From assembly GCA_964504875.1 (NCBI GenBank), contig CAZDFJ010000004.1, positions 23,870-87,869 of the forward strand: a stretch of 64,000 nucleotides of DNA. Reading direction: 5' to 3'. Position numbers and translations under genes: made by a program. Positions 3,512 through 47,839 of this stretch are shown here, piece after piece. The stretch's first letter is position 1; every line of letters starts with the position of its first letter. Source of the stretch: an uncultured Burkholderiales bacterium. GTDB taxonomy: Bacteria; Pseudomonadota; Gammaproteobacteria; Burkholderiales; CAZDFJ01. Below the pieces are notes generated by a model. The model saw only the letters and a list, made by a program, of their open reading frames with translations, had not been told where the DNA came from and did no database searches.

Positions 3512-3880
3512 TTATGTTGTAATCAGACATTGTTTGATTGCTGACTTTTTTATAAGATTTTCCATATTTTTAGGAAGATAAACCAGTTGAAGTTGTTTTC
3601 CTTGGCGTTTCAAAAAAAAGTGGAGCTCTTGTAAAATGCCAAAACACATGCTGTCAATTAATTTAATTTTTGTAAAGTTAATCCGCAAAATTTGATGGCC
3701 ATTCATTTCGTTTTCAAAAATATGACTTAAGTATTTCCGAAATAAATAAAGCGTATCGTGTGTAAAACGCCCATGAATAAAGAGTTCAACGAGGTTTAAT
3801 GTTGCGTCACAACGCACAGATAATGAAAAAACTGTATTTTTAAATAAGAGGCGTGAATTGGGATCACTATTTGAACACAT
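3512..3880 (-). CDS. Single-domain STAS protein (anti-sigma-factor-antagonist-like), paralog 1
   Basis: The 122-aa product aligns along its whole length with the ORFs at 4720..5142 and 3962..4335. Shared blocks are G(R)xTxDxLxLFRxY, NEM, IDSxxFG and GKxLxL. The putative phospho-acceptor Ser is retained (LIDSMCFG). An AAGGAAG RBS is present. Confidence 0.7.
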   Translation of the reverse strand: MCSNSDPNSRLLFKNTVFSLSVRCDATLNLVELFIHGRFTHDTLYLFRKYLSHIFENEMNGHQILRINFTKIKLIDSMCFGILQELHFFLKRQGKQLQLVYLPKNMENLIKKSAIKQCLITT

Positions 3881-3961
3881 CTTTCTGTCTTCCTTTTATT
3901 ACAAATGTAAAAATATAAAATAATTGATCAAGTAGAGAGTGTGAAATAATTTGCGGAGAAG

Positions 3962-4335
3962 TTACGGAGGCGGGCAAGGAAAAGAAGAATGTGTGTGAAT
4001 AATAAGGGCACTCTGCCTTAATGAAGTATGAAGAAATAATTTTTCTAAATGACGAGGCAGATTTTTAAATTGAAGGGATTTAGATTGTCCGTCTAATAAA
4101 CAATCAAGTTGGATAGCAAAGCCAAAGAAGGTAATGTCAATACCAATTGCGTGTGTGAGGTCAATCATCAGTGTGTGTGCTTTCTCCATTATTTCAGAGT
4201 TCACAACACAATGGATTTGATGCTTGAAAAGCCGAAAGTTGACGAAATTGAGTTCGCCATGTACGGAAATAGTAGCTACCCCCCCCCCCCCATGGGATTT
4301 TGACCAATTATTTTTAGTATAAATTGACTATTCAT
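3962..4335 (-). pseudogene. STAS paralog 3, frame-disrupted at a poly-G tract (phase-variable gene or frameshifted pseudogene)
   Basis: The ATG at 4335 reads MNSQFILKIIGQNPMGGGG and then hits TAG at 4278..4276. The STAS body (VATISVHGELNFVNFRLFKHQ... to the stop at 3962) is open in the adjacent frame from 4327. Adding 1 G or removing 2 G restores a ~124-aa protein colinear with the paralogs. Confidence 0.7.
4279..4291 (-). repeat. Homopolymeric tract, 13 x G on the coding (minus) strand
   Basis: Direct count gives c at 4279-4280, ten c at 4281-4290 and c at 4291. The plus-strand antisense ORF translation YPPPPMGF confirms the run. It is by far the longest G/C homopolymer I found in the window. 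Confidence 0.95.
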
Positions 4336-4657
4336 TTCTTTTTTTATAAAATAAAAATAGTTCTACAATCAATAGGACACAAATTAAATTGATTATAAGC
4401 ATAAATTGCAGAATGTAAACAAAAAATTGTTTATAAATTTAATAAAAATAGTATTTTAATTGTAAATATCTTTTTTATTTTAGCTAATATAAACATTTAA
4501 TTAAAATAAATTAATAAAATAGATAATATTTATTATTATTTAATGAAACTATTTTTTTGAAAATCTCAATATTTAAAAAAAGAAAAAATGCCAGAAAGAA
4601 ATTTATTTTTATAAAAAATATAAAATAAAAAGAGATGTTTTGATGAGAATTAAATAA

Positions 4658-4689
4658 AAAAACAGCAAAATAAATTTTGCTGTTTTTTG
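4658..4689 (-). terminator. Rho-independent terminator downstream of STAS paralog 2
   Basis: The stem pairs CAGCAAAA with TTTTGCTG and is flanked by A/T runs on both sides. Confidence 0.6.
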
Positions 4690-4719
4690 TAAGAAATTAA
4701 AGCAGAAGTCTCTATTTGT

Positions 4720-5142
4720 TTACCAAGGGAGCCATGTATTCTGTTTTTTTTCTGTGATAGGCCGAGAATCATCCAATACAACGCAGGCATTAAAAGGAGA
4801 GTTTAATAAAAGTTCACGTGTATTTTCAGGAGGGTTAAGGATTTTGAGCTTTTTCCCCGCCTTTTCTAAAGTCCGATAAAGATGAATAACCATACCGAAA
4901 CCTGTACTGTCAATATGATCGGTCAGATTGCAATCAATCAACAAGGTGTGATGTTGTGGCATTTCGTTATCAAGCAAGTAAGTGGTATAGCGTCGGAAAA
5001 GTGATAAATTATCATAAGTCAATCTTCCTGTTACAATAAGCTTGAGCATATCATCTTCAATCATATGGGAAAGAATGAGTGATTGAGACTGAAAACAATT
5101 ATAAAGTCCCACATCAAAAGTATGAAAAGATAAGTTATTCAT
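4720..5142 (-). CDS. Single-domain STAS protein (anti-sigma-factor-antagonist-like), paralog 2
   Basis: The 140-aa product has the STAS core LLIDCNLTDHIDSTGFGMVIHLYRTLEKAGKKLKIL with the conserved DS(T/S)G phospho-acceptor motif. A GAGGGGA RBS is present. An extended -10-like TGCTAGAAT lies on the minus strand at 5188..5196. Confidence 0.75.
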   Translation of the reverse strand: MNNLSFHTFDVGLYNCFQSQSLILSHMIEDDMLKLIVTGRLTYDNLSLFRRYTTYLLDNEMPQHHTLLIDCNLTDHIDSTGFGMVIHLYRTLEKAGKKLKILNPPENTRELLLNSPFNACVVLDDSRPITEKKQNTWLPW

Positions 5143-15238: not shown

Positions 15239-15739
15239 TTAACGTACTTGTGTTTCTTTATACTGAAACATAAGGGGAACACGGCGCGGTTTTCGTTTTG
15301 CACAATAAAGCTTGCTTTGGGTCGGGCCGTAATCAATCAACATGCTGCCTGCCGCAGAACGATATTGATTGGGTTTGTGAATCGGAAAAAATCGAACAGC
15401 CGCATTGCTTTCTAGGGCTTTTTTTGCCTCTTCTACCGAAGAAGCAATCACTACACCTACAAATTCATATTCGCTTGCGGGATGGTTGACAAAACCTTCT
15501 TGTAATTTTAACCCGAAAAGGGTCTCAGAAACGCTAAACCATTCTGCTTCGCCTTCAGTACGAAGTGGTTCTTTGTAAAAATCTCGTAAATACTGTCTAA
15601 AAAATGCGCCACTGACTTCGTCATGGCACAATAGTGCCGATCCAAAAATCGTATTAAATGTTGTGGGGCCTGCGGTAACAGTGCAAACAGCACACAGACA
15701 AATCAGCCCAAAAAAAGATGAAAAGACAAACTTATTCAT
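15239..15739 (-). CDS. Exported protein of unknown function
   Basis: The 166-aa product has an N-terminal signal-peptide-like segment MNKFVFSSFFGLICLCAVCTVTA. I recognise no family. Its start is 11 nt after the stop of the RsbT-like gene. Confidence 0.5.
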   Translation of the reverse strand: MNKFVFSSFFGLICLCAVCTVTAGPTTFNTIFGSALLCHDEVSGAFFRQYLRDFYKEPLRTEGEAEWFSVSETLFGLKLQEGFVNHPASEYEFVGVVIASSVEEAKKALESNAAVRFFPIHKPNQYRSAAGSMLIDYGPTQSKLYCAKRKPRRVPLMFQYKETQVR

Positions 15740-15750
15740 GAAGAAATCGT

Positions 15751-16182
15751 TTAGAAAGAATCATAGAAACGCGCACGCATTATGGAAATAGTGACACAAG
15801 TTCCTTCAGTTGTGGATTGTAAAGAAAACTCATCCATGAGTCGGCGCGTCCCGGGTAATCCCCCACCCAAACTGTTTGTATTAGTACTGTAATTATCTTG
15901 CAATGCAAGCTCTATATTGGGAATGCCGGGACCACTATCTCGCACAATGACTTTCATTTTAATAAAATGATGCGCCAAATTCGACTCGTCAACAATTGTA
16001 CATTCTCCAGCATACGCATATTTGATGACGTTGCGTGTCAACTCAGAAATGGCAGTAGCAATTTTGGTTTGATCAACTGTATTAAAGCCAATTGCCCGAG
16101 CCATTTCGCGACCCATCCGTCGTGCAATAATAATATCATTCTGCACTTGTAAGGGAATGACGTGTTGTTTTATTTCAAACAT
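15751..16182 (-). CDS. RsbT-like anti-sigma regulatory factor / switch Ser-Thr kinase (HATPase_c_2)
   Basis: The 143-aa product is colinear with Bacillus RsbT as recalled. Shared blocks are DIIIARRMGREMARAIGFNTVDQTKIATAISELTRN, DSGPGIP and GLPGTRRLMDEFSL. Confidence 0.75.
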   Translation of the reverse strand: MFEIKQHVIPLQVQNDIIIARRMGREMARAIGFNTVDQTKIATAISELTRNVIKYAYAGECTIVDESNLAHHFIKMKVIVRDSGPGIPNIELALQDNYSTNTNSLGGGLPGTRRLMDEFSLQSTTEGTCVTISIMRARFYDSF

Positions 16183-21392: not shown

Positions 21393-23414
21393 GTGGTGAA
21401 AAATAGTGTATTAAATCGGCTCTTATTGTGGATTTTGGGTGTCGCTTTTCTCAGTTTTGGTTTTACAATTGGTGTCATTACATATAAAAATAGCCAAATG
21501 ACACGAACCCTCGCATTAGAAAATATGCGTCATTTAGCTAAGGAAGAAGCTGGAACAATTCAAGTTGCTTTTTCGACCAGGGCTGAAGCGATTCGTACTC
21601 TTGCTCAAACAATTGCGCAGTTACAACGAGAAAAAGCCCTTTCAAGAGAACAACTTAGTGGCATTATTAAAACAGTTTTTGCGCGTTATCAAGATTTGGA
21701 AGGAATTTGGTTTATTGCTGAGAAAAATGGACTGGATCAAGATGCCACATATCAAACAAATCCCATTTATGATCAAGGGCGTCTGACGCTTTATTATGTA
21801 CGTGATCAACAAAATCAAATTCAGTTGAAAAAACCGAATGTGGATTATCAACCGGATTATCAAGCGCCCTTTTATCGTGTGGCTCAAGAAACGAAAAAAG
21901 AATCGATTGCTTCCCCTTATTTGAATCGTAATACAGCCCGTTCTAAATTAATTACTTCAATTAGCATTCCCGTCTTATTAGATGAACAACTTTTAGGCGT
22001 GATCGGCATTGATATCGCTTTAGATACATTACAAGAGGAATTGAGTCGAATTCATCCCTATAAAAATATGGGACTTGTTGCGGTTCTTGCCCAAGATGGG
22101 ACATTTGTCACCCATAAAGAACAAAGAAAAGTCGGAAAAAGAATTCAGGACGTGAATGATAAGTTATTACCTTCAGAATTGCAAAGTGCATTGGGCGCAT
22201 TACAACGCGGGGAGTTTATACAAATTTCAGGCGAGAAAATCGATTCAGAATTAGTTTTCACGCCGCTTCAAATCGGAGAGGCGCAACAAAAATGGTCTTT
22301 GGCGGTCATTGTCCCTCGTCATGCAATTTTAGGCGATTTGAGACACACGACTTCTTTAGCTATTGGCATGGGCCTGAGCGCACTTGTGCTCATTGGATTA
22401 ATTATTTTTCAAATTATTAAAAAATTAATTCATCAACCGCTTTCAGAAGCGATTCATTTTGCTAATGATTTGTCTAATGGCGATTTATCCACACAACTTG
22501 AGATTGTTCAACGCGATGAAATGGGCAATATGCTTTATGCCTTGCAGAAAATGCAAAAGGGTTGGGTCGAAATAATCAAAAAAATCAAGGTGGATGCAGA
22601 AGAATTAGGACATGCGACAACGCAAGTTTTTGATCATGCTCAAAATGTTTCATTGTCTTCGCAAAAACAAAGCTTAACCGCAGTTGAAGTGGCTCAATCT
22701 ATTGAGATGATGGTCTGCACAATGGATCAGATTGCGAATAATTCCCAAGAAGCGCGGCAGACTTCGCAACAAGCAGGAGAACGTTCTGCAAAAGGGAGTG
22801 ATATGCTTCAATTAGTGACAAAAGAAATGGAGGTGTTATCCAAGGCCGTTACAGAATCTTCTCATGTCATTCAATTATTAAATCAACAATCTGAATCAAT
22901 TTCTTCTATTACAGGTGTAATTAGAGATATTGCGGAGCAAACCAATTTATTGGCCTTAAATGCGACGATTGAAGCCGCGCGCGCCGGCGAAACTGGCCGA
23001 GGTTTTTCAGTTGTTGCCGATGAAGTCCGTAAACTCGCAGAAAAAACAGCGGAGTCCACAAAAGAAATTGCGATGATGATCGATCAAATTCAATCTTATG
23101 CGGCGTCTGCCACGGCTTGTATGGACCAAAATGTCAAACAAGTTGAGAAAAGTGTTGTGCTTGTTCAAGATGCAGAAAATTTAATTCACGAAATTAAATC
23201 TGGATCAGCGCAGGTTGTTGACACGATTTATGCGATTTCCAGCGCCCTCATTGCACAAAATCAAACAAGTAAAAAAATTTCGGGTAATATTGAGGAAATT
23301 GCTGCAATGTCTGAGGGAAATGAGCAACTGATTGGGCGCGTGACTGATTCAATGCAGCAACTGAATCAATTATCTGTTTCATTGCAAAAGGCAGTAGAAA
23401 CGTTCAAGTTATAA
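21393..23414 (+). CDS. Methyl-accepting chemotaxis protein (Cache-type periplasmic domain, HAMP)
   Basis: The 673-aa product has two TM segments, a Cache-like block [16 protein letters not shown], and the hairpin-tip signature [36 protein letters not shown]. It has a GTG start. Confidence 0.9.
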
Positions 23415-23431
23415 AAATAAAAATAGGAGCT

Positions 23432-23941
23432 ATGATGCGTATTGGACAAGGTTTTGATATTCATGCATTAGTTTATGATCGTCCTTTAATTATTGGAGGC
23501 GTCACGATTCCTTTTGAAAAAGGGTTGGCTGGACATTCTGATGCAGATGTTTTAATTCATGCAATTTGTGATGCTTTATTGGGTGCGGCTGGGTTAGGTG
23601 ATATTGGCCGCCATTTTCCTGATACTGATCCAAAATATAAAAATATTAATAGTCGATTATTATTGCGTAGTGTAGTGAATAAATTACAAATAGAATCACT
23701 TTATATTGCGAATATTGATGCAACAATTATTGCACAAGCTCCAAAATTAGCGCCTTATATTCCAACAATGCAACAGTACTTAGCTGAAGATTTAGGGATT
23801 GCTGCTGAAAAAATTAATGTCAAAGCAAAAACAATGGAAAAATTGGGGGCGATCGGTAGAGGTGAAGGCATGGCTGCGGAAGCCATTTGCTTATTGCTAC
23901 CTTATTCAAAAGGAGAAGGGAGTCTTATTGCGTTTGCTTAG
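23432..23941 (+). CDS. ispF: 2-C-methyl-D-erythritol 2,4-cyclodiphosphate synthase
   Basis: The product carries [20 protein letters not shown] and [10 protein letters not shown]. Confidence 0.9.
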
Positions 23942-24085
23942 TCTTGCGTTATTCTCTTTAAAAAACTTATAAAAAATAATAAAAATCAATAGCTGATTAA
24001 ATCACGAAAAGGGTAGAATCAAAAGAAAGAGATGATGGTTTTATGTTGTTTTTGTGAATAATAAGCATTAAGTAGAGATAAATGC

Positions 24086-26956
24086 ATGAATGATTTGGAT
24101 CAGACTGCTTGTTTGTATTTAACCCATAAAGATTTTTTTAATCAAGCTGTTTTTAATAATCCTATTATAGGGGTTGCGTTTTTAACGAAAAGTGGGAATT
24201 TTTTAGAGGTCAATCAAAGACTTTTAGAAATGCTTGATATTTCCACAAAAGAAGAAATTCTCACTAAAAATTGGAAAGATTTTACTGTTATTGAACAGTC
24301 TGATAAATTTGAATCAATATTTTCTGATTGTCTTCAGAAAATGGAAAGTAATGAATCTGTATCGGTCACACAAAATTATTACTTACAAAATAAGACTGGA
24401 TTTTCTATCTTTTGTCGTGTTCATATCGTGTCATTATCTTTGTCATGTCCATTACAAATTTTAGAAAGTCCCGCGTTTTTAATTTTTGTGGAGAATATCA
24501 CTGAAGAAAATATTTATAAACAAATGTTTCAAGTGAATCCGGCTCCGAAAATTTTAGTTTTGCCTGAGTCGGGCGTCATTGTTGATGCAAATTATGCGGC
24601 TAGTTTGTTTTATGGCTATTCTGTTGTGCAATTGAAAAATATGACTGTTTATGATTTGTGTATTTTGCCCAAAGAAACAGTGGAATATCATATTCAAAAT
24701 ACCGTCTATTCTCCTCAAGGATTTACATTCGAATCACAGCATCGTCTGGCTGACGGTAGTTCGCGGGATGTTGAAGTATCCAATGCCTGTATTCGCATTG
24801 GGAAACAAGTTTATTTATATTCAATTATTCAAGATGTGACGGTAAAAAATCGAGCTCAAACGGCGCTTTCTCAAGAGGTGCATCGACATGATACTTTATT
24901 GAAATCCATGCGGGAAGGTTTTCATGTCATAAATAGCGAGGGAAAAATTTTAGAAGTGAATCAAGCCTGTTGTGATTTAACAGGATATTCTCGTGCCGAA
25001 TTGTTAAATTTATCTGTTAAAGAATTAGATTGTTATCTTCAACCAGACGTAGTTCTGCTTCAAAAAATACAAACTTTCTTTTTAGAAGAAAGTGTGACAT
25101 TTGAGACGATGTGGAAGCGAAAAGATCAAATTCGTATCTCAATTGAAATCAAAACAAGTGTTTTCTTTTCAGGGAGTGCCGCCCTTTTATTTTGTACAGC
25201 GCGGGATATCACAGAACGCAAAAAAGCGGAATTGGCGTTACGTGAAAATGAGGCTTGTCTGCGAGAAATCACCAATACGATTGCAGAGGGCTTATATGTT
25301 TTAGATGAGCGGGGACAAATTGTCTTTAGTAATCCAGAAGTTTCTCGATTATTAGGGTGGACTCAAGAAGAATTGTATCAGCGAGATGCTCATGGCTTAT
25401 TTCATCATATAAAAAATGAAGGGAAAAATTTATTACATAAAAATTGTCAAATTGATCAGGTTGTTTTGGAAGGAAATATTTTTCGTGGGGTTGCCTCGTT
25501 TGTGCAGCGAAATGGCCAGATTCTGCCTGTCTCTGTTGTTGCAACGCCTATGATTCGAGAAAATAAAATTGTAGGTTCTATTGTCACATTTCAGGATTTG
25601 AGGGAGTTAAAAGCTGCCGAAGAAGAAAAATATCAGACAGAAAGACGGTTTAAAAAAATTTCAGAAGCCTTACCTGGAGTGGTGTATCAATTACATTTTA
25701 ATGTTTCAAAACGAGAAATGGAATTTGGGTTTTTAAGTCAAGGCGCGCGGGCTTTATTTGATATAGAAGAAGAACGAAATCTGTCTGATCTGCGTTTTGC
25801 TGAAACAATGGAAATGGTTGTTCCTGAGGATTGTGAAAAAATCGCCAAAAGTACGCAATATTCTGCGATATTACTTCAACCATGGAATTTAGAATTTCGA
25901 ATTCGTACACCAAAAGGCGTACACAAGTGGATTCATGGACATTCTATGCCGGAAAAAGATGAAGCAGGCAATATTGTTTGGAATGGTTTTCTGGTTGATA
26001 TTACAAAGCATAAAGAAGAAGAGGAAGCAGTCTGGCTAGAGCGCGAAAAATTTAAGCTAGCAATTGAGGCATCCGAGGCAGGATATTATGATCATGATTT
26101 ACAATTTGAACATGTACATATTGACATGCATGTTGCGCAAATCTTAGGATATGAATTAGTAGATGTTCCACAAGGAAGCGAAATTGTTTCGTGGTGGTTA
26201 AGTCGTATTATGCCAGATTATCGTGATTTAGTTTGTCATGAATACCACAAACTATTAGATAAAGAAATGGATCATCTTGTTTTAGAATATAAAATTAAAC
26301 ATCGTTCGGGCGCATCCCGCTGGCTTCGTGTTACGAGTAAAATTATTACGTTTCAAAATAATATTTCTCACCCATATGATGAAATTGTCGGAATTATCTT
26401 AGATATTACTTCAGTGCGGCGGGCGCAGGAAAAGCTTGAAATTCTTGCCAATTATGATCAATTAACACATTTGGGAAATCGACATGCCTTTACGCATTAT
26501 TTACCCAAATGGATTGAAAAAGCCTATCGTCATAATCAACAATTTGCTTTATGCTTTTTAGATTTAGACGGTTTTAAATTAGTAAATGATCAATATGGGC
26601 ATGATATAGGGGATTTATTACTGAAAGAAGTTGCAAAACGTCTGAATTTGTGTTTATTTCACCCAAAAGATACGGCATATCGGGTGGGCGGGGATGAATT
26701 TATTTTATTGATTCGTCATCAGGCAAGTTTTAAGCAATATTTGACAGAGTTAGCAAATCGTGTTATTGAAAATCTCAGTGTTGCTTTTTTGATTGGTGAA
26801 AAAAGTGTGCATATTGGGGTCAGTATTGGTATTGCTATTTATCCAGATCATACAATGGAAATGAATCATTTGATTAAATATGCAGATAGTGCGATGTATG
26901 AAGCCAAAAATAATGGGAAAAATACATACCGGTTTTATCAAGAAAGCATTGAGTAA
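24086..26956 (+). CDS. Multi-PAS/PAC diguanylate cyclase (GGDEF)
   Basis: The 956-aa product has at least four PAS/PAC-like repeats. The C-terminal GGDEF domain has an intact RVGGDEFILL active site. No EAL domain is present. Confidence 0.85.
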   Translation: MNDLDQTACLYLTHKDFFNQAVFNNPIIGVAFLTKSGNFLEVNQRLLEMLDISTKEEILTKNWKDFTVIEQSDKFESIFSDCLQKMESNESVSVTQNYYLQNKTGFSIFCRVHIVSLSLSCPLQILESPAFLIFVENITEENIYKQMFQVNPAPKILVLPESGVIVDANYAASLFYGYSVVQLKNMTVYDLCILPKETVEYHIQNTVYSPQGFTFESQHRLADGSSRDVEVSNACIRIGKQVYLYSIIQDVTVKNRAQTALSQEVHRHDTLLKSMREGFHVINSEGKILEVNQACCDLTGYSRAELLNLSVKELDCYLQPDVVLLQKIQTFFLEESVTFETMWKRKDQIRISIEIKTSVFFSGSAALLFCTARDITERKKAELALRENEACLREITNTIAEGLYVLDERGQIVFSNPEVSRLLGWTQEELYQRDAHGLFHHIKNEGKNLLHKNCQIDQVVLEGNIFRGVASFVQRNGQILPVSVVATPMIRENKIVGSIVTFQDLRELKAAEEEKYQTERRFKKISEALPGVVYQLHFNVSKREMEFGFLSQGARALFDIEEERNLSDLRFAETMEMVVPEDCEKIAKSTQYSAILLQPWNLEFRIRTPKGVHKWIHGHSMPEKDEAGNIVWNGFLVDITKHKEEEEAVWLEREKFKLAIEASEAGYYDHDLQFEHVHIDMHVAQILGYELVDVPQGSEIVSWWLSRIMPDYRDLVCHEYHKLLDKEMDHLVLEYKIKHRSGASRWLRVTSKIITFQNNISHPYDEIVGIILDITSVRRAQEKLEILANYDQLTHLGNRHAFTHYLPKWIEKAYRHNQQFALCFLDLDGFKLVNDQYGHDIGDLLLKEVAKRLNLCLFHPKDTAYRVGGDEFILLIRHQASFKQYLTELANRVIENLSVAFLIGEKSVHIGVSIGIAIYPDHTMEMNHLIKYADSAMYEAKNNGKNTYRFYQESIE

Positions 26957-31523: not shown

Positions 31524-32375
31524 ATGAATAATAGTAGTCATTCTGAAGTACTCAGACAACGTGAGTTTGCATTTAGCCGAGAAGATTTTTTGCGTATTAA
31601 AAAATTGATTTACGAACACGCAGGCATCTCTTTAAATGATAATAAACAAGAAATGGTATATAGCCGTTTGGCGCGGCGTTTAAGACAGCATAATTTTCAA
31701 TCATTCAAAGAATACTTGGATTATTTACAAGTTGTTCCTGACGAATGGGAGGCTTTCACGAACGCCTTGACGACAAATTTAACCTCATTTTTTCGAGAGG
31801 CTCATCATTTTCCCATTTTGGCTGAACATTTATTAAAATTAAAACATCAACCGATTCGTATTTGGAGTGCCGCCGCTTCTACAGGAGAAGAACCTTATTC
31901 TATTGCAATTACTGTGGTAGAGACGCTTAATCAGTTGAATCCTTCTGTTGAGATTTTGGCAACAGATTTGGATACACATGTGTTGCAAAAAGCTCGAGAA
32001 GCAATTTATGCGGTCGATCGTGTTGAAAAAATGGATCCGGAGCGTGTGAAACGTTTTTTCTTGCGCGGAAAAAATCAATTTGATGGCTTTGTGCGGGCGC
32101 GTCCTGAATTATGTCGCATTATAGATTTTAAGCAACTTAATCTATTGGACGAAAATTGGAATATCAAAGGGCCATTTGATGTGATTTTTTGCCGAAATGT
32201 CATGATTTATTTTGATAAAGAAACACAATATAAAATTCTTAAAAAATTTGTGCCATTACTGAGGCCAGACGGTTTGTTATTTACAGGGCATTCAGAAAGC
32301 TTTTTGCATGCAACAGATTTATTTAAGCCATTAGGGAAAACAGTGTATCGCCTTGCTCATACTTCGCATAAATAG
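31524..32375 (+). CDS. cheR: Chemotaxis protein methyltransferase
   Basis: The 283-aa product has a CheR N-terminal helical domain plus a SAM domain: TSFFRE, IWSAAASTGEEPYSIA and FCRNVMIYFD. Confidence 0.9.
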   Translation: MNNSSHSEVLRQREFAFSREDFLRIKKLIYEHAGISLNDNKQEMVYSRLARRLRQHNFQSFKEYLDYLQVVPDEWEAFTNALTTNLTSFFREAHHFPILAEHLLKLKHQPIRIWSAAASTGEEPYSIAITVVETLNQLNPSVEILATDLDTHVLQKAREAIYAVDRVEKMDPERVKRFFLRGKNQFDGFVRARPELCRIIDFKQLNLLDENWNIKGPFDVIFCRNVMIYFDKETQYKILKKFVPLLRPDGLLFTGHSESFLHATDLFKPLGKTVYRLAHTSHK

Positions 32376-32408
32376 TTAATTAGAAAATATATTGGAGACC
32401 AAAATTAT

Positions 32409-33029
32409 ATGGTGATACAAGATTATACAGAAACACTTAGTCCTAATTTGTATTTTGATCGACATTTCAATATGGAGGCGGGCAAGATTTTACCAGGGGA
32501 ATATTATGTAACGAGGCGGGACATGCTTCTTGTGACTGTATTAGGTTCCTGTGTTTCAGCATGTATTCGGGATGCTATATCTGGAATAGGCGGAATGAAT
32601 CATTTTATGTTGCCTGATAGCGGTTCCTCAGATAAAGAAAGTTTGCTAAGCTCTTCTGCGCGTTATGGGACATACGCTATGGAAGTCTTAATTAATGAAT
32701 TATTAAAATTAGGGGCAAAGCGAGCAAATTTGGAAGCAAAAGTTTTTGGGGGCGGGCGCGTCTTAAAAGGTTTTACGGTTGGGAATGTTGGGCAAAGAAA
32801 TGCTGATTTTGTTTTAGAATTTTTAAAAACAGAAAATATTCGGGTTGTTGCCCAAGATTTACTCGATGTTTATCCTCGAAAAGTTTATTTTTTTCCAAAA
32901 ACCGGTAAAGTGCTTGTGAAGAAATTGAAAAGTACACATGGGGATGAAAATATTCTTAAAGATGAAAGAGAATACAATCGACGGATTGTGCAGTCACCTA
33001 TTAGTGGGGATATTGATCTCTTTACTTAA
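32409..33029 (+). CDS. cheD: Chemoreceptor glutamine deamidase
   Basis: The 206-aa product carries LGSCVSACIRD ... GGMNHFMLPD ... AKVFGGG. Confidence 0.85.
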   Translation: MVIQDYTETLSPNLYFDRHFNMEAGKILPGEYYVTRRDMLLVTVLGSCVSACIRDAISGIGGMNHFMLPDSGSSDKESLLSSSARYGTYAMEVLINELLKLGAKRANLEAKVFGGGRVLKGFTVGNVGQRNADFVLEFLKTENIRVVAQDLLDVYPRKVYFFPKTGKVLVKKLKSTHGDENILKDEREYNRRIVQSPISGDIDLFT

Positions 33030-33145
33030 TCAAAAAAATAAATTTATAATCATACATGTTTAATAAGAAAACAGTGTTTATAGGTAAAGAGAAAAAAAAA
33101 TGCTGAGTATATGTGAGGAAATATCAGCTTTTAAAAGGATTGTTT

Positions 33146-34249
33146 ATGAAACTAAAGGTACTCGTTGTTGATGATTCAGCATTAATCCGGAGTGTTTTAA
33201 AGGAAATTATTAATAGCCAGCCAGATATGGAAGTTGTTGGGGCGGCTCCTGACCCTTACGTTGCAAGGGATTTGATTAAAAAATTAAATCCTGATGTGCT
33301 GACACTGGATGTGGAAATGCCGCGGATGGATGGATTAGACTTTTTAGAAAAGTTAATGAGATTACGTCCTATGCCAGTGGTGATGGTTTCAACTTTGACA
33401 GAACGGGGGTCAGATGTGACATTTCGTGCCCTTGAGTTGGGGGCAGTAGATTTTATTACAAAACCAAAGTTAGATATTAGTCGTGGCTTACAGCAGTATA
33501 GTGATGAAATTACAGATAAGATTCGTGCCGCTGCACGGGCTAAGATAAAACGACTTCATGCATTACAAACCATGGTAAAAGGACATGAGCCTGAACAAGC
33601 GCGGCCTGTGGCACCTATTGCTCATGTTCCGACTTTGGGAAATGCGTTCATGACAACAGAAAAGGTAATATTAGTAGGGGCTTCTACCGGTGGCACAGAA
33701 GCAATCAAAGATTTTCTAATAGAACTGCCTCCAGATTGTCCAGGCATTTTAATCACACAACATATGCCAGAAGCGTTTACCCGTTCTTTTGCGAATCGCC
33801 TGAATAATTTATGTCGTATTACTGTAAAAGAGGCGGAGCATAATGAACGTATTCTTCCTGGACATGCGTATATTGCGCCAGGCCACTCCCATTTGTTGAT
33901 CCGCAAAAATGGGGCAAATTATGTCACAGAATTGAGTCAAGCGGCGCCTGTTAATCGTCATCGGCCTTCAGTAGATGTTTTATTTCGGTCTGCTGCGGAA
34001 ATTGTAGGTAAAAATGCGATTGGCATTATTATGACAGGCATGGGTAAGGATGGGGCACTAGGCATGTTAGAAATGAAACAAGCCGGGGCTTTTAACTTTG
34101 CGCAGGATGAGGCGAGTTGTATTGTTTTTGGTATGCCAAAAGAAGCCATTGCTGTGGGGGCAGTCGATGAAATTATTACGATTAAAGAAATGGCCCACGC
34201 TGTGATGACATATTTAACGAGCTTGGGAAAAAGAAATTTTCGGGTGTAA
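33146..34249 (+). CDS. cheB: Chemotaxis response regulator protein-glutamate methylesterase
   Basis: The product has REC ([19 protein letters not shown]) and an esterase domain ([19 protein letters not shown]). The ORF track starts at 33113, and the ATG at 33146 gives the canonical N-terminus. Confidence 0.9.
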
Positions 34250-34776
34250 TATTCCCAAAAAATAAATATTAAAAATAATAAAACTGTTTTTCCAGAAGCA
34301 GAAAAATAATATATGAAGCTTATAATTTTGACCTAGTCTATTTATTTTATGGTCAAATATAGTATTTTCCTTATATTTGGAAGGAAAGAATAACAAAAAA
34401 CGAATTTGATTTGCTATAATAAACATCATATAGAATTGCCAATATTTTTCTTTATGAAAAATACTAGAAAAATAAAATTTTTTATTATCTATCATGGAAA
34501 AAATACAGGTTTTTTGTTAAGCAGGCCTTAAGTGTATTGCTTTGAAAGCCAAGGTATCAAGAGTACATGAAAAAAATTGTAGTTCATAAAAAGATATGAT
34601 TGATGTGTAATCGATTATATTAGGTACTTTTCATAAAGAAGTATTTATGATTTAGTCAGTGAAGTAATCTATCAAAAAGTAGTCAATCTGATCATCTCCT
34701 GTTCTAATCTCTTAAAAAGAAAATGACAAGATTGAACATATTTTAGCGTACCTTAGTATTTTTGAGGATGATAAGC

Positions 34777-35082
34777 ATGCAAGTAAATTTGCAAGTTAAA
34801 GAAGGAAAAGCAAAGCTGGTATTAAGCGGGCGATTTGATTTTAATTCCCACCGTGAATTTCGTAGCGGTTGTGATGAAGCGATGAATTCTCCTAAAATTA
34901 ATGAAATTGAAATTGATTTAGGCGGCGTGGATTATCTGGACAGTTCAGCATTAGGGATGCTTTTATTATTACGTGAGCGCGCAGTCGCTTCTAATAAAAA
35001 ATTGGCCTTGGCGAATTGTCGGGGAACAGTCAAACAAGTGCTCGATGTTGCAAATTTTAGTCAACTCTTCACGATTCGTTAA
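34777..35082 (+). CDS. Canonical STAS anti-sigma-factor antagonist (SpoIIAA/RsbV/CrsA-like)
   Basis: The ~101-aa product has YLDSSALGMLLLLRE with the conserved phospho-acceptor Ser. A GAGGA RBS lies 8 nt before the ATG at 34777. The ORF track starts at a TTG at 34762. Confidence 0.8.
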   Translation: MQVNLQVKEGKAKLVLSGRFDFNSHREFRSGCDEAMNSPKINEIEIDLGGVDYLDSSALGMLLLLRERAVASNKKLALANCRGTVKQVLDVANFSQLFTIR

Positions 35083-35806
35083 GCGTTGATTCATCGCCAT
35101 AAATCAGTGAATTCTTCCACACATCCTGTTTATGTAAAATTTAATTTTGATGTGATGTTTTATGATTATTTATATAAATAACTAACAAGAAAACATCAAA
35201 AAATCATTTTAAAAATAGAGTGAATATGAATAGGATGTGATCAGTATTGTGATGCGCTCAAATGCTTAGTTTTATCCATTTTCTTGAAAATAGCAGCCGC
35301 TGAATTTTTGTCTTTTCGAGTTTGTTGAGACAGAGTTAATACTGTTTTTTTAACTTTAATCAGCAAACCAATTAACTCTCTTCTCATCTAATTTAGAAGA
35401 AAAGCAATCATTCGTCTATGAAAAATATGATTAATCTATTTTTATTGCGGGGCTTTCAGAAAGGCTAATAAATATGCGGGTTATTTTTTGCAAATCTTAT
35501 TGAAATGTAAAAAATAAGATCATCCGTGAAAAAATATAGATTTTTCACTATTAATTGCACGATTTTTCCATTAGAATAATACGGTTTTATAGTTGTTATG
35601 AGTATGGTATTTTTATCATTTCGATTTTGGTCGGCAATTAAAGCTAACAGTTAATTTTTATTAATTTTAATAGGTCATTATTTATTGAAATAATAATAGT
35701 GTGAAGACTTTACATCTTTTATCATGTGATAATTATGAAATAAAGTATAAAAATTTACTGTTAAGTATTAATCATTTTTAGTCTTTTTGCAGCGAGTGCT
35801 TCAACA

Positions 35807-37534
35807 ATGCAAGGAAAAATTAAGGTTTTGGTCGTTGATGATTTGGAACAAAATTTACTGTTAATCAGTCGATTTGTAACAAAATTAGGACATCAAGTAG
35901 TCACGGCAAAGAATGGTGAAGAAGCGATTCGATGCTATCAGGAAGAACGTCCCGATGTAATCCTCATGGATATTATGATGCCGGGGATGGATGGGTATGA
36001 GGCGACCGCACGGATTAAAGCACTTGAAACAAACAAGTGGGTCCCCGTTGTTTTTCTGAGTGCGATGACACAAGATGAAAGTTTGGTACGCGGCTTGGAT
36101 GTCGGAGGGGATGACTATCTGACAAAGCCAGTGAATCTTGTTGTATTGAAAGCAAAGATTAATGCGATGTTACGTATTGCCGAGTTGCAGGAATATCTTG
36201 CAGAAAAAAATGATAAGCTGGAAAGCTATTATTTTATGGCAGAGGAGGAGAAACGTGTAGCGAAACACCTCATGGAGCATATTATTAATGCTGAAAAATT
36301 ACATGATGAATCGCTAGAGTTTTTTACTGAACCTGCGCAAGGATTTAATGGTGATTTGCTTGCTGCTGCCCGTTCGCCAGGGAATATTTTACATGTGTTA
36401 CTTGCAGATGGGACAGGGCATGGTCTGTCTGCTGCCATTAACGTCATGTTATTAATTCAGCCTTTTTACGCTATGACAGAAAAAGGATTTTCCCTTCCGA
36501 GTATTGTCGAGGAAATGAATCGCAAATTGAAAGCGGTTATGCCAGCGGATCGTTTTGTGGCTGCAACTTTTGTCTCGATTGATATGCGAAATCATCTTAT
36601 TGAAGTATGGAATGGGGGCAATCCTGCTTTAATTGTTTTAGATAATGAAGGTCAAATTATTAAACAATTTCGGGCAAAACACTTACCATTGGGTATTTTA
36701 AATGAGAATGAATTTCGTTCTTATACTGAGATTTATCAGTGGGAAAGACCTGTTCAAGTAGTGCTTTGTTCGGATGGTGTAACAGAGGCAGAAAATACAG
36801 AAAATAAAATGTTTGGCATTGATGGTGTGATTAGTAGTCTACAACGTCATCAACCTGTTGATCGTTTAACTTGCTTAATGAATGATATTAAAACGCATTT
36901 AAACGGCCGGCCTGCTGTAGATGATTTATCTATGGCGTTGATTCATTGCCCAATGCATGAAGAACAATCTCATAAATTTGTGGAACAAAATGCCAATTAT
37001 GTGCATACCCTCGAACAAGGGATTGGTTATTGGAAATTTGAATTGGGACTCAGCGCCCATGAATTGAAATATATTGACGTTGTTCCGATTATGTTGAATG
37101 TCATTAATGAAATTCATATTGCACGTGAACATGCCTCACAACTCTTTTTGATTGTGTCAGAATTGTATAACAATGCATTAGATCATGGTATTTTAAAATT
37201 AAATTCGCAATTAAAATCACAGCCTGAAGGGATGGATCGTTATCTGACAGAGCGAAAACAACGTTTACAAAATTTAGAGCAAGGAAGTATTGAGATTCGT
37301 TGTGAAAGTGTGATTTTTAACCAAAAAGCTTGTATTAAAATTCATGTGCGAGATAGTGGTCAAGGTTTTGATTTTCATCATATTGATAAAACAAATGATC
37401 ATCATATTACCAACCCAAGTGAATTAATGATTCGACCTTTTGGGAGAGGAATACATTTAGTGAAGCATCTTGCCAGCCATGTGCAATACTTGGGACAAGG
37501 CAATGAAGTTGTGGTCTATTATGAATTAAGTTAA
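35807..37534 (+). CDS. Three-domain response regulator: REC, PP2C/SpoIIE phosphatase and HATPase anti-sigma kinase (CrsR-like)
   Basis: The 575-aa product has REC (VLVVDD, ILMDIMMPGMDG, DYLTKP). It also has PP2C (GDLLAA, LLADGTGHGLSAA, CSDGVTE) and a C-terminal RsbW-like HATPase (SELYNNALDHG, VRDSGQGFD, GRGIHLV). Confidence 0.8.
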   Translation: MQGKIKVLVVDDLEQNLLLISRFVTKLGHQVVTAKNGEEAIRCYQEERPDVILMDIMMPGMDGYEATARIKALETNKWVPVVFLSAMTQDESLVRGLDVGGDDYLTKPVNLVVLKAKINAMLRIAELQEYLAEKNDKLESYYFMAEEEKRVAKHLMEHIINAEKLHDESLEFFTEPAQGFNGDLLAAARSPGNILHVLLADGTGHGLSAAINVMLLIQPFYAMTEKGFSLPSIVEEMNRKLKAVMPADRFVAATFVSIDMRNHLIEVWNGGNPALIVLDNEGQIIKQFRAKHLPLGILNENEFRSYTEIYQWERPVQVVLCSDGVTEAENTENKMFGIDGVISSLQRHQPVDRLTCLMNDIKTHLNGRPAVDDLSMALIHCPMHEEQSHKFVEQNANYVHTLEQGIGYWKFELGLSAHELKYIDVVPIMLNVINEIHIAREHASQLFLIVSELYNNALDHGILKLNSQLKSQPEGMDRYLTERKQRLQNLEQGSIEIRCESVIFNQKACIKIHVRDSGQGFDFHHIDKTNDHHITNPSELMIRPFGRGIHLVKHLASHVQYLGQGNEVVVYYELS

Positions 37535-42507: not shown

Positions 42508-44604
42508 ATGTTATGGTTAACCAAAATGTCAATTCGGATGAAATTAACTTTATCTGTGACATTGATTACATTAATTGGATTAATACTAACAGTCAGTGTG
42601 ATTGTGAAGCAAGGGAAAGAATCCTTGCAAGATATCACGTTTCAACATGCTGAGATCACGGCTCATAAGGAAGCTGTTGAAGTCGAGGCTTATTTAAATC
42701 ATGGAATGGAAATTGCGCGGGGAATTGCCCGAGATTTTGAGATTTTAAAACAAAATCATATTATTAATCGTGCGTTATACAATCAAATTTTGATTCGTGC
42801 ATTGAAATCCAATCCTGATTTTATTGCAGCCTGGACGATTTGGGAACCCAATGCCCTTGATCAAAATGATGCGGCATATATAGGTCAACAGGGTACGGAT
42901 CCAAAAGATGGACGTTATATTCCCTACTTTAATCGCAAAACAGCAGATGGAAGTATTGCATTAGATACAGCTGTTGATAAACCAGAAGATTATCAAGCGG
43001 ATTTTTACGGGGGTGTAAAAGCAACACAAAAGGAAGTGATTGCAAAGCCGGCTTCTTATATGATTAATGGTCAACCCACGCTCTTAAGTGGCTTAATTGT
43101 GCCATTAATTATTAATAATCAATTTGTTGGTGTGGTAGGCATTGATATTGATTTAAATGCTTTGCAAAAAAAATTAGCGAAAATTCACTTGTATGATAAA
43201 GGATTTGTGACATTAATTGCACATGATGGAACGCGGGTCACATGGCATGATCCTCAAAAAATTGGAAAGCCTTTTGAAGAAAGTTCAAAATTACCCCATC
43301 CCTTAATTCAAAAGGTAAAAGATAAAATCCAAAGTGGGGAAAAATATCATTTACGTATTCCGGAAATTAATCGAGAATGGTATCTTAATCCTGTTTATAT
43401 AGGCAATACACAAACTCCATGGGGATTAGTAGGTGCTTTTCCATTAGATATTGTGACTAAAAAAAGTGATTATTTAATTCAATTAGGTATGGTTTTGAGC
43501 GCAGGAACTCTTTTTTTTCTAGTCGGATTAATTAGTATTAGTTTATACTTTTTTGTGAATAAGCCATTATCTAAATTGATTTTTAAAATTAAAGATGCCA
43601 GTCAAAATGGTAAATTTGATGTCGATTTTAGAGTGCATCAAAAAGATGAAATAGGAGAATTAACACAGCATTTGCATATTATGGTTTCTGTTTTATCTTC
43701 TGGATTAGAAGAAATTAAACAAATGATGCAGTGCCTATCTCAGGGTGATTTAACACAAAAAATGTCTAAAAAATACGTTGGCGATTTAGCGGTGGTTTCA
43801 CGAGATGCTAATAGCGCTATTGAAGCATTATCTGTATTAATTACACATTTAAAATTGAACGTCACACAAATGTATCAAATTGCATATGAAGTGTCGCAAG
43901 GCAATGAATCACTTTCAACGCGGACAAATGAACAAGCGCGCTGTGTTGAAAATGCAACAGATAAAATAAATAAAATGCGGGAACAGATTGCGCAAAACGT
44001 TCAGTCTGCTGAGCAGATTAATAAAATTATTATAGAAATGGTCACGCTGGTTCAAAAAGGGCGGGTTTCAACGGATCAAACGGTGCAGGCTGTGGAAGAA
44101 ATTGCCATGCGTGCTCAAAGTATTGCGCATATTACAAATCTGATTGATGAAATAGCTGAACAGACAAATTTGTTAGCCTTAAATGCTTCAATTGAATCTG
44201 CGCGCGCGGGCGAAGCGGGGCGGGGGTTTGCTGTTGTTGCAAGTGAGGTGCGGGCTTTAGCACAGCGCTCTGCAAAAGCGGCCAAGGAAATAAAAGGATT
44301 GACACAACGTTCAGTGGAGAAAGTCGCAGAAGGTCAAACATTAATCCATCATACAGAAATAATTAGTCATGAGATGGAAAAAACAATTGGAGTGGTCTCT
44401 AATTTTATGTCTGAAATTTTGAATGCGTCGCGTAATCAAAACGAAAATGCCCATGAAATCGGAAACATGATGCAATCTATTCAAGATATGACGACTCAAA
44501 ATGATATTTTAGTAGAACGACTTAATCAGTTGGGTAATGCGCTCGAAACCCAATCGCAAGATGTCACGCAATCTATTGCAACGTTTAAGGTAATGACAAA
44601 CTAA
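42508..44604 (+). CDS. Methyl-accepting chemotaxis protein (double-Cache-type sensor, HAMP)
   Basis: The 698-aa product carries GRYIPYFNR and [12 protein letters not shown] (Cache). Its hairpin tip is [36 protein letters not shown]. The start may be the Met at 42526. Confidence 0.9.
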
Positions 44605-47008: not shown

Positions 47009-47290
47009 ATGGACACTCAAACAAAAGAAATTATTATTCAAGGTCTTACGAGTAGTGGTAGAACATTTCGTCCAAGCGACTGGGCAGAACGACTTTCTGG
47101 GGCATTGTCTAGCTTCGGGACAGATCAGCGTATGCGGTATTCTCCGTATGTGCGGCCTATGACACTAAAAGGGATAAAATGCGTTGTTGTTGATATGCGC
47201 CTAAAAGATTCTCAACCACGTGCATATAACTTCTTAATAGGGTTTGCCCGCGATAATGATTTACAAGTAATTGATGAACAAGTTTCTTAG
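47009..47290 (+). CDS. Small conserved protein, DUF3579-like
   Basis: The 93-aa product contains GRTFRPSDWAERL...YSPYVRP, recalled as characteristic of the betaproteobacterial DUF3579 family. Overlapping AT-rich ORFs in other frames look spurious. Confidence 0.5.
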   Translation: MDTQTKEIIIQGLTSSGRTFRPSDWAERLSGALSSFGTDQRMRYSPYVRPMTLKGIKCVVVDMRLKDSQPRAYNFLIGFARDNDLQVIDEQVS

Positions 47291-47761: not shown

Positions 47762-47800
47762 AATTGAAACGTCATAAAAAGGCGTTTCAATTATTTTTTA
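47762..47800 (+). terminator. Orphan Rho-independent terminator in an intergenic region
   Basis: A 10-bp stem pairs AATTGAAACG with CGTTTCAATT and is followed by ATTTTTTATGTTTTTT. It lies 470 nt downstream of the nearest plus-strand stop and 40 nt upstream of the cbiX-like start. Confidence 0.55.
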
Positions 47801-47839
47801 TGTTTTTTCGTCATCAATATATTTTATTTTTTATTTGAA

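What the first reader, a model, noticed from the sequence alone, without database searches (positions are those of the whole stretch)
4279..4291. A 13-nt poly-G tract splits a STAS-domain gene: candidate slipped-strand phase-variation switch, currently OFF
On the minus strand, the ATG at 4335 opens MNSQFILKIIGQNPMGGGG. The reading frame runs through a 13-G run and hits TAG immediately after it (4278..4276). The remaining ~105 codons run from VATISVHGELNFVNFRLFKHQ... to the stop at 3962. They are open in the neighbouring frame from 4327 and align residue for residue with the two flanking STAS paralogs. Adding one G or removing two G fuses both parts into a ~124-aa protein the same size as its paralogs (122 and 140 aa). 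In this low-GC genome a G13 run is far outside expectation. The next longest G/C runs I saw are 7 nt. Its position just after the start codon is the classic layout of translational contingency loci in Neisseria, Haemophilus, Bordetella and Campylobacter. I am not aware of phase variation of a partner-switching (anti-sigma antagonist-like) component being reported. It would put a stochastic ON/OFF switch on top of a signalling cascade.
Basis: partly seen in the sequence, partly recalled or inferred. Interest (0 to 1): 0.85.

Follow-up and report, generated by a model that had tools for sequence, protein, structure and literature searches.

The report
Poly-G frameshift switch in STAS gene
A run of 13 G bases, unique in this AT-rich bacterial DNA, breaks the reading frame of a small signalling (STAS) gene; the run differs in length between near-identical wild populations, so it most likely acts as a random on/off switch, a known mechanism in a gene class where I found no earlier report of it.

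Summary
A G13 run on the minus strand (4279..4291) splits a STAS-fold gene into a 19-codon head and a 105-codon body. Lengths of 8, 11, 14, 17 or 20 G restore a 122-126 aa protein.

New evidence:
- The same species (99.2-99.9% nt identity) occurs in at least 15 public metagenome assemblies. The tract is 13 G in three spanning assemblies and 14 G (in frame) in one partial contig. Contigs from two other samples end in at least 15 and at least 19 G.
- 11 of 68 contig ends, from 10 samples, fall within 31 nt of the tract.
- Two sister lineages carry an intact, syntenic 121-aa ortholog with the same promoter, dN/dS 0.09, and no G run.
- The Gly codons map to the beta1-beta2 loop of an RsbV/SpoIIAA-like model.
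- No strain shows another lesion in the gene.

Best reading (about 0.6): a real hypermutable slipped-strand switch, mostly OFF, gained recently in this lineage. The protein lacks the canonical phospho-serine, so its role in partner switching is inferred.

Rivals: a recent neutral pseudogene (0.25), a sequencing error (0.07), and slippage recoding (0.05). Read-level heterogeneity could not be tested. This is a new member of a known kind. Interest is moderate.

The parts
4279..4291 (-). G13 homopolymer (C13 on the + strand). This is the hypermutable tract. It encodes Gly16-19 and sets the reading frame.
   Evidence: sequence and rarity; frame logic; lengths of 13, 14, at least 15 and at least 19 G in other assemblies of the same species.
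4276..4335 (-). Head of the split gene. ATG 4335 opens MNSQFILKIIGQNPMGGGG, ending at TAG 4278..4276 in the 13-G state.
   Evidence: The N-terminus is homologous to MNGRLTLQFSKKHY... of the intact orthologs P0002 and P0004. It is predicted as strand beta1, residues 6-10.
3962..4279 (-). Body of the split gene: 105 codons plus stop in the neighbouring frame (VATISVHGELN...PCPPP). This is the STAS core, with IDITFFG in place of the D-S-x-G phospho-site motif.
   Evidence: AF2 model, pLDDT 76.9. Foldseek hits to RsbV and SpoIIAA. Open by chance in 0.24% of shuffles. No other indel or stop in 8-9 strains.
4392..4419 (-). Sigma-70-like promoter TTTACA-N16-TATAAT (11 of 12), 57 nt upstream of the ATG.
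   Evidence: The same TTTACA...TATAAT is kept upstream of the intact ortholog in L118 and L119; L120 has a variant -35 hexamer (TTTACT) before the same TATAAT.
3512..3880 (-). Downstream STAS paralog (122 aa, IDSMCFG). It lies 81 nt after the split gene with no terminator between them, so it is probably co-transcribed (inference).
   Evidence: The same arrangement occurs in L118, L119 and L120.
4720..5142 (-). Upstream STAS paralog (140 aa, IDSTGFG). It is a separate transcription unit.
4657..4688 (-). Terminator-like hairpin plus T-run after the 140-aa gene. It insulates the split gene's transcription unit.
15751..16182 (-). RsbW/SpoIIAB-like serine kinase or anti-sigma candidate (143 aa, HATPase_c_2). 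A possible partner of the STAS trio (inference only).
34762..35082 (+). Canonical anti-sigma-factor antagonist (106 aa, DSSALG; TIGR00377 above its cut-off).
35807..37534 (+). Receiver-PP2C(SpoIIE)-HATPase_c_2 protein (575 aa). It has the domain order I recall for Pseudomonas HsbR (PA3346) and lies next to cheR/cheD/cheB. It shows that the organism runs partner-switching modules.
   Evidence: Review PMC8256260 covers the PA3346 system.

Best explanation
The tract is a real, hypermutable G homopolymer inside the 5' part of a functional STAS-fold gene, the middle gene of a genus-specific trio of STAS paralogs.

Mechanism. Slipped-strand mispairing during replication adds or removes G residues.
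- Lengths of 3n+2 (11, 14, 17...) give a 123-125 aa protein whose extra glycines sit in the beta1-beta2 hairpin loop.
- Other lengths end translation after 18-21 or 45-49 codons, which is a null allele.
- In this window and in two other spanning assemblies the modal state is 13 G, which is OFF.
- The tract arose recently in this lineage. Sister lineages have YEQIN at the site and no G run.

Shown:
- The tract, the frame logic and the STAS fold.
- The intact, constrained ortholog and the conserved promoter.
- Tract-length differences between populations.
- The absence of other lesions.

Inferred:
- Switching is reversible within lineages.
- When ON, the protein cannot be switched off by phosphorylation, because it has Ile at the Ser58-equivalent position. 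It would then act as a constitutive antagonist or competitor toward an RsbW-type kinase. In that case the DNA switch would be the main way to turn it off.
- The OFF state may also lower expression of the downstream 122-aa paralog through polarity.
For: - The run is unique. It is the only G/C run over 7 nt in 64 kb, with an i.i.d. expectation of 5e-5.
- Codon choice does not explain it. GGG is only 22% of Gly codons, and the other Gly4 and Gly5 runs in the window's proteins are not homopolymers.
- Tract length varies among 99.2-99.9% identical populations. It is 13 G in the window, SRR12487045 and ERR7015337. It is 14 G (in frame) in SRR22236277. Contigs end in at least 15 G in SRR28032192 and at least 19 G in SRR29928727.
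- Contig ends cluster at the tract. 11 of 68 true contig ends, from 10 samples, lie within 31 nt of it, against 0.5 expected (binomial 3e-12).
- No other indel or stop occurs in the ORF in any strain. The 105-codon body is open by chance in only 0.24% of shuffles.
- A syntenic, intact 121-aa ortholog exists in two sister lineages. Its dN/dS is 0.087, against 0.11 and 0.077 for the flanking paralogs. The promoter is conserved.
- The AF2 model has pLDDT 76.9 and pTM 0.71. Gly16-19 lie in a low-confidence loop between beta1 (6-10) and beta2 (20-28). Foldseek best hits are RsbV, RsfB and SpoIIAA at probability 1.0.
- The gene has its own promoter, and a terminator follows the upstream gene.
- Partner-switching parts are present in the window.
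Against: - No read-level data were available, so heterogeneity within a sample or clone is not shown.
- The single 14-G allele sits at the extreme end of a contig and carries an extra C-to-A change 4 nt before the tract. It is weaker evidence than a spanning contig.
- Contig breaks at long G runs can also come from Illumina errors.
- No complete ON allele exists as a called protein in the 5.8-billion-cluster database.
- All three intraspecies SNPs in the gene are nonsynonymous.
- The protein is only 31-33% identical to its ortholog, while the flanking paralogs keep 54-58%. This fits relaxed constraint.
- Only one such tract is seen in 64 kb, so there is no sign of a genome-wide set of phase-variable genes.
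- The canonical phospho-Ser is missing and no kinase gene is adjacent, so the signalling role is unproven.
Confidence: 0.6

Rival explanations
1. Recent pseudogene. The middle STAS gene has become dispensable in this lineage. A G run expanded by slippage in a loop-coding segment, and the gene is now inactivated. Tract-length variation is neutral mutational noise and is not used as a switch.
For: - All three contigs that span the whole gene have 13 G, which is OFF.
- No complete ON protein is in the database.
- 3 of 3 intraspecies SNPs are nonsynonymous. Under the sister clade's constraint this has P of about 0.02, my estimate.
- The middle gene is the most diverged of the trio, at 33% identity against 54-58% for its neighbours.
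Against: - The ORF is otherwise intact in every strain. Chance openness is 0.24%.
- The promoter and start context are conserved.
- A long uninterrupted tract is kept in every sample where it is visible, at 10 to 19 or more G. A neutral tract would be expected to pick up interruptions.
- A 14-G in-frame allele exists.
- Mechanistically, a G13 tract will revert at high frequency whether or not this is selected.
Confidence: 0.25
2. Homopolymer sequencing or assembly error. The true tract is 14 G (or another in-frame length) everywhere, and the gene is an ordinary intact gene.
For: - Long G runs are error-prone on several sequencing platforms.
- Most assemblies break at the tract.
- One contig shows 14 G.
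Against: - Three assemblies agree on 13 G: the window's 97-kb contig, the Logan contig from SRR12487045 and the Logan contig from ERR7015337. They differ from one another by SNPs, so they are not copies of one assembly.
- Contigs ending in at least 15 and at least 19 G cannot come from a fixed 14-G tract by one-step stutter.
Confidence: 0.07
3. Recoding. RNA-polymerase slippage or ribosomal frameshifting on the G13 run makes a steady fraction of full-length protein from the 13-G allele. The gene would then be constitutively expressed at a low level rather than switched at the DNA level.
For: By general knowledge, long homopolymers promote transcriptional slippage. The stop codon lies directly after the run.
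Against: - No stimulatory structure or known frameshift motif was looked for beyond the run itself.
- The sister species need no such device.
- DNA-level length polymorphism is seen directly.
- This mechanism can coexist with the DNA switch and need not replace it.
Confidence: 0.05

Closest known systems
Translational contingency loci with poly-G/C tracts in the ORF (Neisseria lgt, hmbR, pgtA; Campylobacter jejuni phasome genes)
   Same: An uninterrupted G tract of 8 or more lies in the 5' part of an ORF. Gain or loss of G shifts the frame ON or OFF. Length varies between close relatives. The tract is absent from the ortholog in sister species (PMC2192423, PMC3786947 and PMC6321876, listed; PMC8355987).
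   Different: The targets there are mostly surface structures, restriction-modification systems and glycosyltransferases of host-adapted pathogens, and each genome carries many such loci. Here the target is a cytoplasmic STAS protein in an uncultured low-GC betaproteobacterium known only from metagenomes. Only one tract is visible in 64 kb.
Bordetella pertussis bvgS C6/C7 homopolymer phase variation
   Same: A homopolymer frameshift inside a signal-transduction gene switches a whole regulon stochastically (PMC1891110). This is the closest precedent for a switch placed on a signalling cascade.
   Different: bvgS is a two-component sensor kinase and its tract is short (C6). Here the tract is a long G13 in a small STAS paralog whose output is unknown.
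Campylobacter jejuni flgR/flgS and Klebsiella rmpA repeat-mediated regulator switching
   Same: Homopolymer indels turn regulators on and off (PMC8355987; bioRxiv 10.1101/2025.09.12.675794, abstract).
   Different: The flgR and flgS tracts are short A/T runs and the review describes their mutations as non-reversible. rmpA is a transcription factor. Neither is a partner-switching component.
SpoIIAA/RsbV anti-sigma-factor antagonists (STAS-domain-only proteins)
   Same: The same fold and size. The best structural matches are RsbV (6m36), RsfB (8ih8) and SpoIIAA (1th8, 1tid). Review: PMC8256260.
   Different: The canonical Ser at the N-terminus of helix 2 is Ile, in the orthologs as well. No adjacent kinase or sigma gene is present. 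Sequence scores are below family cut-offs. The three paralogs sit in tandem.

Membership tests
SSR (slipped-strand) phase-variable gene / contingency locus | Uninterrupted mononucleotide repeat long enough to be hypermutable (about 8 or more G/C) inside the ORF or promoter | tested here: met
   G13 at 4279..4291, codons 15-19 of the ORF.
SSR (slipped-strand) phase-variable gene / contingency locus | A change of repeat number moves the gene between an in-frame and an out-of-frame state, with no other lesion | tested here: met
   In-silico length series. No other indel or stop in 8-9 strains.
SSR (slipped-strand) phase-variable gene / contingency locus | Repeat number differs between closely related strains or populations | tested here: met
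   13 G in three assemblies, 14 G in one, and contigs ending in at least 15 and at least 19 G, with 99.2-99.9% identical flanks. Caveat: the non-13 values come from contig ends.
SSR (slipped-strand) phase-variable gene / contingency locus | High-frequency, reversible switching within a clonal lineage, with mixed lengths in reads or colonies | not testable with these tools
   No raw reads or cultures. Indirect only: contig ends cluster at the tract in 10 samples.
SSR (slipped-strand) phase-variable gene / contingency locus | The ON and OFF states differ in phenotype | not testable with these tools
   Needs an isolate or heterologous expression.
Anti-sigma-factor antagonist (SpoIIAA/RsbV-type STAS protein) | STAS fold | tested here: met
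   AF2 model, pLDDT 76.9. Foldseek hits to RsbV and SpoIIAA, probability 1.0, TM 0.6-0.77. Pfam STAS_2 E=3e-4, below the gathering score.
Anti-sigma-factor antagonist (SpoIIAA/RsbV-type STAS protein) | Phosphorylatable Ser directly after the conserved Asp at the start of helix 2 (D-S-x-G) | tested here: not met
   The split gene has IDITFFG and the orthologs have IDIILFG. The paralogs keep IDSTGFG and IDSMCFG. The position of SpoIIAA Ser58 is from my own knowledge.
Anti-sigma-factor antagonist (SpoIIAA/RsbV-type STAS protein) | Cognate RsbW-type kinase/anti-sigma factor and PP2C phosphatase, usually adjacent | tested here: inconclusive
   None is adjacent. An RsbW-like gene lies at 15751..16182 and a receiver-PP2C-kinase gene at 35807..37534 in the same window. 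No link to the trio is shown.
MlaB (STAS partner of the MlaFEDB lipid transporter) | Encoded with mlaF/E/D/C and matching the NF033618 equivalog | tested here: not met
   The neighbours are ilvE, a zf-CHCC gene and paa genes. The fused protein has no NCBIfam hit. The 140-aa paralog scores 23.6 bits against a cut-off of 90.
Decaying pseudogene | Several independent lesions, or loss of promoter or start | tested here: not met
   There is a single frameshift, at the tract. The promoter and start are kept. A hint of relaxed constraint remains.

The most novel reading that the evidence does not exclude
A partner-switching network holds a naturally non-phosphorylatable STAS antagonist whose activity is gated by a heritable, stochastic DNA switch (the G tract) instead of by kinase and phosphatase. 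This would produce bet-hedging subpopulations in an uncultured betaproteobacterium. It would be the first contingency locus in a partner-switching cascade I am aware of, and it would have evolved de novo within one genus.
Probability: 0.3. Interest if true: 0.7.

Novelty: new member of a known kind. Interest (0 to 1): 0.55.

Why it matters
Simple-repeat phase variation is well understood, but it has been catalogued almost only in host-adapted pathogens and mostly for surface or restriction-modification genes.

This case would extend it in three ways:
- To a cytoplasmic STAS protein, a member of the family that gates alternative sigma factors and related outputs.
- To an organism known only from metagenomes.
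- To a tract that arose recently, which can be seen because sister lineages keep the intact gene without it.

It also shows that public metagenome assemblies can give population evidence for a contingency locus, through tract-length differences and contig breaks.

If the protein does act on an RsbW-type kinase, a genetic coin-flip would replace the phospho-switch that the protein has lost.

Tried and rejected
- Word-indexed homology search with the fused protein returned only its own 75-aa ORF. Searches with P0002 and with the 140-aa paralog found one further cluster each. The family is nearly orphan.
- Exhaustive phmmer over 1.84 billion representatives gave only self, the ortholog P0002 and one spurious repeat protein.
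- Two JGI metagenome scans found nothing, one with a DNA pattern across the tract and one with an ortholog alignment.
None of the 80 loci it returned has STAS genes after ilvE-zf-CHCC.
- More look-ups with ilvE, flavodoxin, enoyl-CoA hydratase and the zf-CHCC protein added samples but no new contig that spans the tract.
- The run accessions are not mentioned in the paper library, so the habitat is unknown.
- MlaB identity was considered and rejected.
- An alternative start at ATG 4293 was considered and rejected. The upstream 14 codons are homologous to the ortholog's N-terminus and form strand beta1 in the model.
- The antisense ORF 4109..4303 (+) is judged spurious.
- Rfam finds no RNA family at the locus.

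Full report
**1. The observation**

On the minus strand, ATG 4335..4333 opens MNSQFILKIIGQNPMGGGG. The frame runs through thirteen G (4291..4279) and meets TAG at 4278..4276. The neighbouring frame continues from 4279 as VATISVHGELNFVNFRLFKHQ... for 105 codons, to the stop at 3964..3962.

The run is the only G/C homopolymer longer than 7 nt in the 64-kb window, which has 36.9% GC. The i.i.d. expectation for a run of 13 or more is 5e-5.

An in-silico length series gives these outcomes:

| Tract length (G) | Product |
|---|---|
| 8, 11, 14, 17, 20 | 122-126 aa full-length protein |
| 10, 13, 16, 19 | stop directly after the tract |
| 9, 12, 15, 18 | 45-48 aa out-of-frame peptide |

GGG makes up only 22% of glycine codons in the window's genes. 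The other Gly4 and Gly5 runs in its proteins are not homopolymers at the DNA level. A need for four glycines therefore does not explain the tract.

**2. What the gene is**

- The flanking genes (122 aa, 3512..3880; 140 aa, 4720..5142; both minus strand) hit Pfam STAS above the gathering score. The fused middle protein hits STAS_2 and STAS only below it.
- The three proteins align at 26-30% identity.
- An AlphaFold2 model of the fused 124-aa protein, built from a 5-sequence alignment, has mean pLDDT 76.9 and pTM 0.71. It shows the STAS order of strands and helices.
- In that model beta1 is residues 6-10 and beta2 is 20-28. The glycines (16-19) lie in the low-confidence loop between them.
- Foldseek against the PDB ranks RsbV (6m36), TM1442, RsfB (8ih8) and SpoIIAA (1th8, 1tid) first, all at probability 1.0.

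The tract therefore codes for a hairpin loop, a place where a variable number of glycines should be tolerated. That last point is an inference.

The canonical phospho-serine is the residue after the conserved Asp at the start of helix 2, which is Ser58 of SpoIIAA by my own knowledge. It is present in the paralogs (IDSTGFG, IDSMCFG) but is Ile in the split gene (IDITFFG).

**3. Relatives**

The protein is almost an orphan.
- The word-indexed search found only its own 75-aa ORF.
- An exhaustive phmmer search of 1.84 billion representatives found one real relative, P0002 (121 aa, 39% identity over the body).

P0002 is the syntenic ortholog in a sister lineage (L118 and L119). The gene order there is ilvE, zf-CHCC, STAS-141, middle gene, STAS-122, enoyl-CoA hydratase, aldehyde dehydrogenase, flavodoxin, paaA. 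P0004 is 88% identical to P0002 and occupies the same place in L120.

Features of the orthologs:
- Both are intact.
- Both start MNGRL(T/K)LQFSKKHYEQINIA... and have no G run at the site. The DNA reads ...CATTACGAGCAAATCAATATTGCC....
- Both also carry Ile at the phospho-site position.
- The promoter-like TTTACA-N16-TATAAT at 4419..4392 (11 of 12) is kept upstream of the ortholog in L118 and L119. L120 has TTTACT as the -35 hexamer.
- Between L118 and L120 the middle gene has dN/dS 0.087. The flanking paralogs have 0.11 and 0.077.

The middle gene is thus a real, constrained gene in the genus, and the tract is a recent acquisition of the window's lineage.

Amino-acid identity between the window species and L118 or L120:

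| Genes | Identity |
|---|---|
| Housekeeping neighbours | 87-94% |
| Outer STAS genes | 54-58% |
| Middle gene | 31-33% |

The trio evolves fast, and the middle gene evolves fastest.

None of 80 betaproteobacterial loci fetched through ilvE has a STAS gene after ilvE-zf-CHCC. The trio appears genus-specific, and the organism is an unnamed low-GC betaproteobacterium.

**4. Population evidence**

Exact-protein look-ups of neighbouring genes recovered the same species, at 99.2-99.9% nucleotide identity, from at least 15 public metagenome assemblies.

Contigs that pass through the tract:
- 13 G in SRR12487045 and ERR7015337, as in the window.
- 14 G, the in-frame length, in SRR22236277. The gene caller there reads a 113-residue product through the tract.

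Contigs from other samples stop inside the run:
- after at least 19 G (SRR29928727)
- after at least 15 G (SRR28032192)
- starting with at least 12 G (ERR7015334)
- starting with at least 10 G (DRR804194)

Of 68 true contig ends mapped onto a 10.5-kb span, 11 fall within 31 nt of the tract. They come from 10 samples, against 0.5 expected (binomial 3e-12).

Caveats:
- The contigs were fetched through flanking genes.
- Breaks at long G runs can also reflect sequencing error.
- The 14-G allele lies at a contig end and carries an extra C-to-A change at 4295.

No strain has any other indel or stop in the gene. The 105-codon body would be open by chance in only 0.24% of shuffles.

On the other side, the only three SNPs inside the gene are all nonsynonymous: P14H, Phe-to-Leu at 4036 and Ser-to-Asn at 4011. 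No complete ON protein is present in the protein database.

**5. Transcription unit**

- A terminator-like hairpin (4688..4657) follows the 140-aa gene.
- The strong promoter-like site precedes the split gene.
- No terminator lies between the split gene and the 122-aa gene 81 nt downstream.

I infer a two-gene operon, so that premature termination in the OFF state could also reduce expression of the 122-aa paralog. This was not tested.

**6. Signalling context**

The window also encodes:
- an RsbW/SpoIIAB-like 143-aa HATPase_c_2 protein (15751..16182);
- a canonical antagonist with DSSALG (34762..35082);
- a receiver-PP2C-kinase protein (35807..37534) next to cheR, cheD and cheB. It has the domain order I recall for Pseudomonas HsbR (PA3346), whose system is described in PMC8256260.

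The organism clearly uses partner switching. No data link the trio to these proteins.

**7. Interpretation**

The best-supported reading (about 0.6) is a genuine slipped-strand switch. It is a hypermutable tract that recently evolved in a loop-coding segment of a functional, independently transcribed STAS gene, and its modal state in the sampled populations is OFF.

Non-phosphorylatable SpoIIAA (S58A) binds SpoIIAB constitutively; this is from my own knowledge of the Bacillus literature. I therefore propose that the ON protein is a constitutive antagonist or competitor, and that the tract supplies the off-switch that phosphorylation cannot. This step is inference.

Rivals:
- A recent neutral pseudogene (0.25). 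Support comes from the all-OFF spanning contigs, the nonsynonymous SNPs and the fast divergence. The otherwise perfect ORF, promoter and tract argue against it.
- A sequencing error hiding an intact 14-G gene (0.07). Three differing assemblies agree on 13 G, and contig ends show at least 15 and at least 19 G.
- Transcriptional or ribosomal slippage as the main route of expression (0.05). This is compatible with the DNA switch and need not replace it.

**8. Comparison with what is known**

The layout matches translational contingency loci of Neisseria and Campylobacter (papers listed; PMC8355987).

Homopolymer switching of signalling proteins has precedents:
- Bordetella bvgS, C6/C7 (PMC1891110).
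- C. jejuni flgR and flgS (PMC8355987).
- The regulator rmpA (bioRxiv 10.1101/2025.09.12.675794).

Full-text searches combining phase variation, homopolymers or contingency loci with STAS, RsbV, SpoIIAA, anti-sigma-factor antagonist or partner switching found no report of such a case.

I file this as a new member of a known kind. The mechanism is classical. The target class, the metagenome-only organism and the visible recent origin are the new elements.

**9. Verdict**

Interest is 0.55. The decisive missing piece is a count of tract lengths in reads that span the tract, or in single-colony lineages.

Noticed in passing
window 31524..37534: A chemotaxis block (cheR 31524..32375, cheD 32409..33029, cheB 33113..34249) is followed by a canonical STAS antagonist (34762..35082, DSSALG) and a 575-aa receiver-PP2C-HATPase_c_2 protein (35807..37534). 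The domain order matches what I recall of Pseudomonas HsbR/HsbA.
   Followed up: partly
window 35083..35806: A 725-nt AT-rich stretch between the canonical STAS gene and the receiver-PP2C-kinase gene has no ORF of 50 aa or more on either strand and no Rfam hit. It is unusually long for an intergenic spacer inside what looks like one module.
   Followed up: no
window 15239..16182: A stand-alone RsbW/SpoIIAB-like kinase (143 aa, 15751..16182, minus strand) is followed by a 166-aa protein (15239..15739) with a signal-peptide-like N-terminus and no Pfam or NCBIfam match. No STAS or sigma gene is adjacent.
   Followed up: partly
window 3512..5142; L118, L119, L120: The STAS trio is inserted between ilvE-zf-CHCC and the paa/flavodoxin genes only in this genus. 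It is absent from 80 other betaproteobacterial ilvE loci. It diverges far faster (31-58% aa identity) than its neighbours (87-94%).
   Followed up: yes
L111 and L120 (both SRR29928728): The window species and the sister lineage that carries the intact ortholog P0004 occur in the same sequencing run, so the two lineages co-occur in one habitat.
   Followed up: no
window 21393..26956, 42508..44604, 48983..51040: Sensory genes are dense here: three dCache methyl-accepting chemotaxis proteins and a 956-aa multi-PAS GGDEF protein within 30 kb. This suggests a motile, signal-rich lifestyle despite the low GC content.
   Followed up: no
window 46098..47839: A stretch of about 1.7 kb has only short ORFs (93 aa or less) between an AMP-binding_C-domain gene and a CbiX-like gene.
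   Followed up: no
L118 1318..1527: In the sister lineage a 69-aa ORF is called in the spacer between the 141-aa STAS gene and the middle gene. The window has 385 nt there with no comparable ORF.
   Followed up: no
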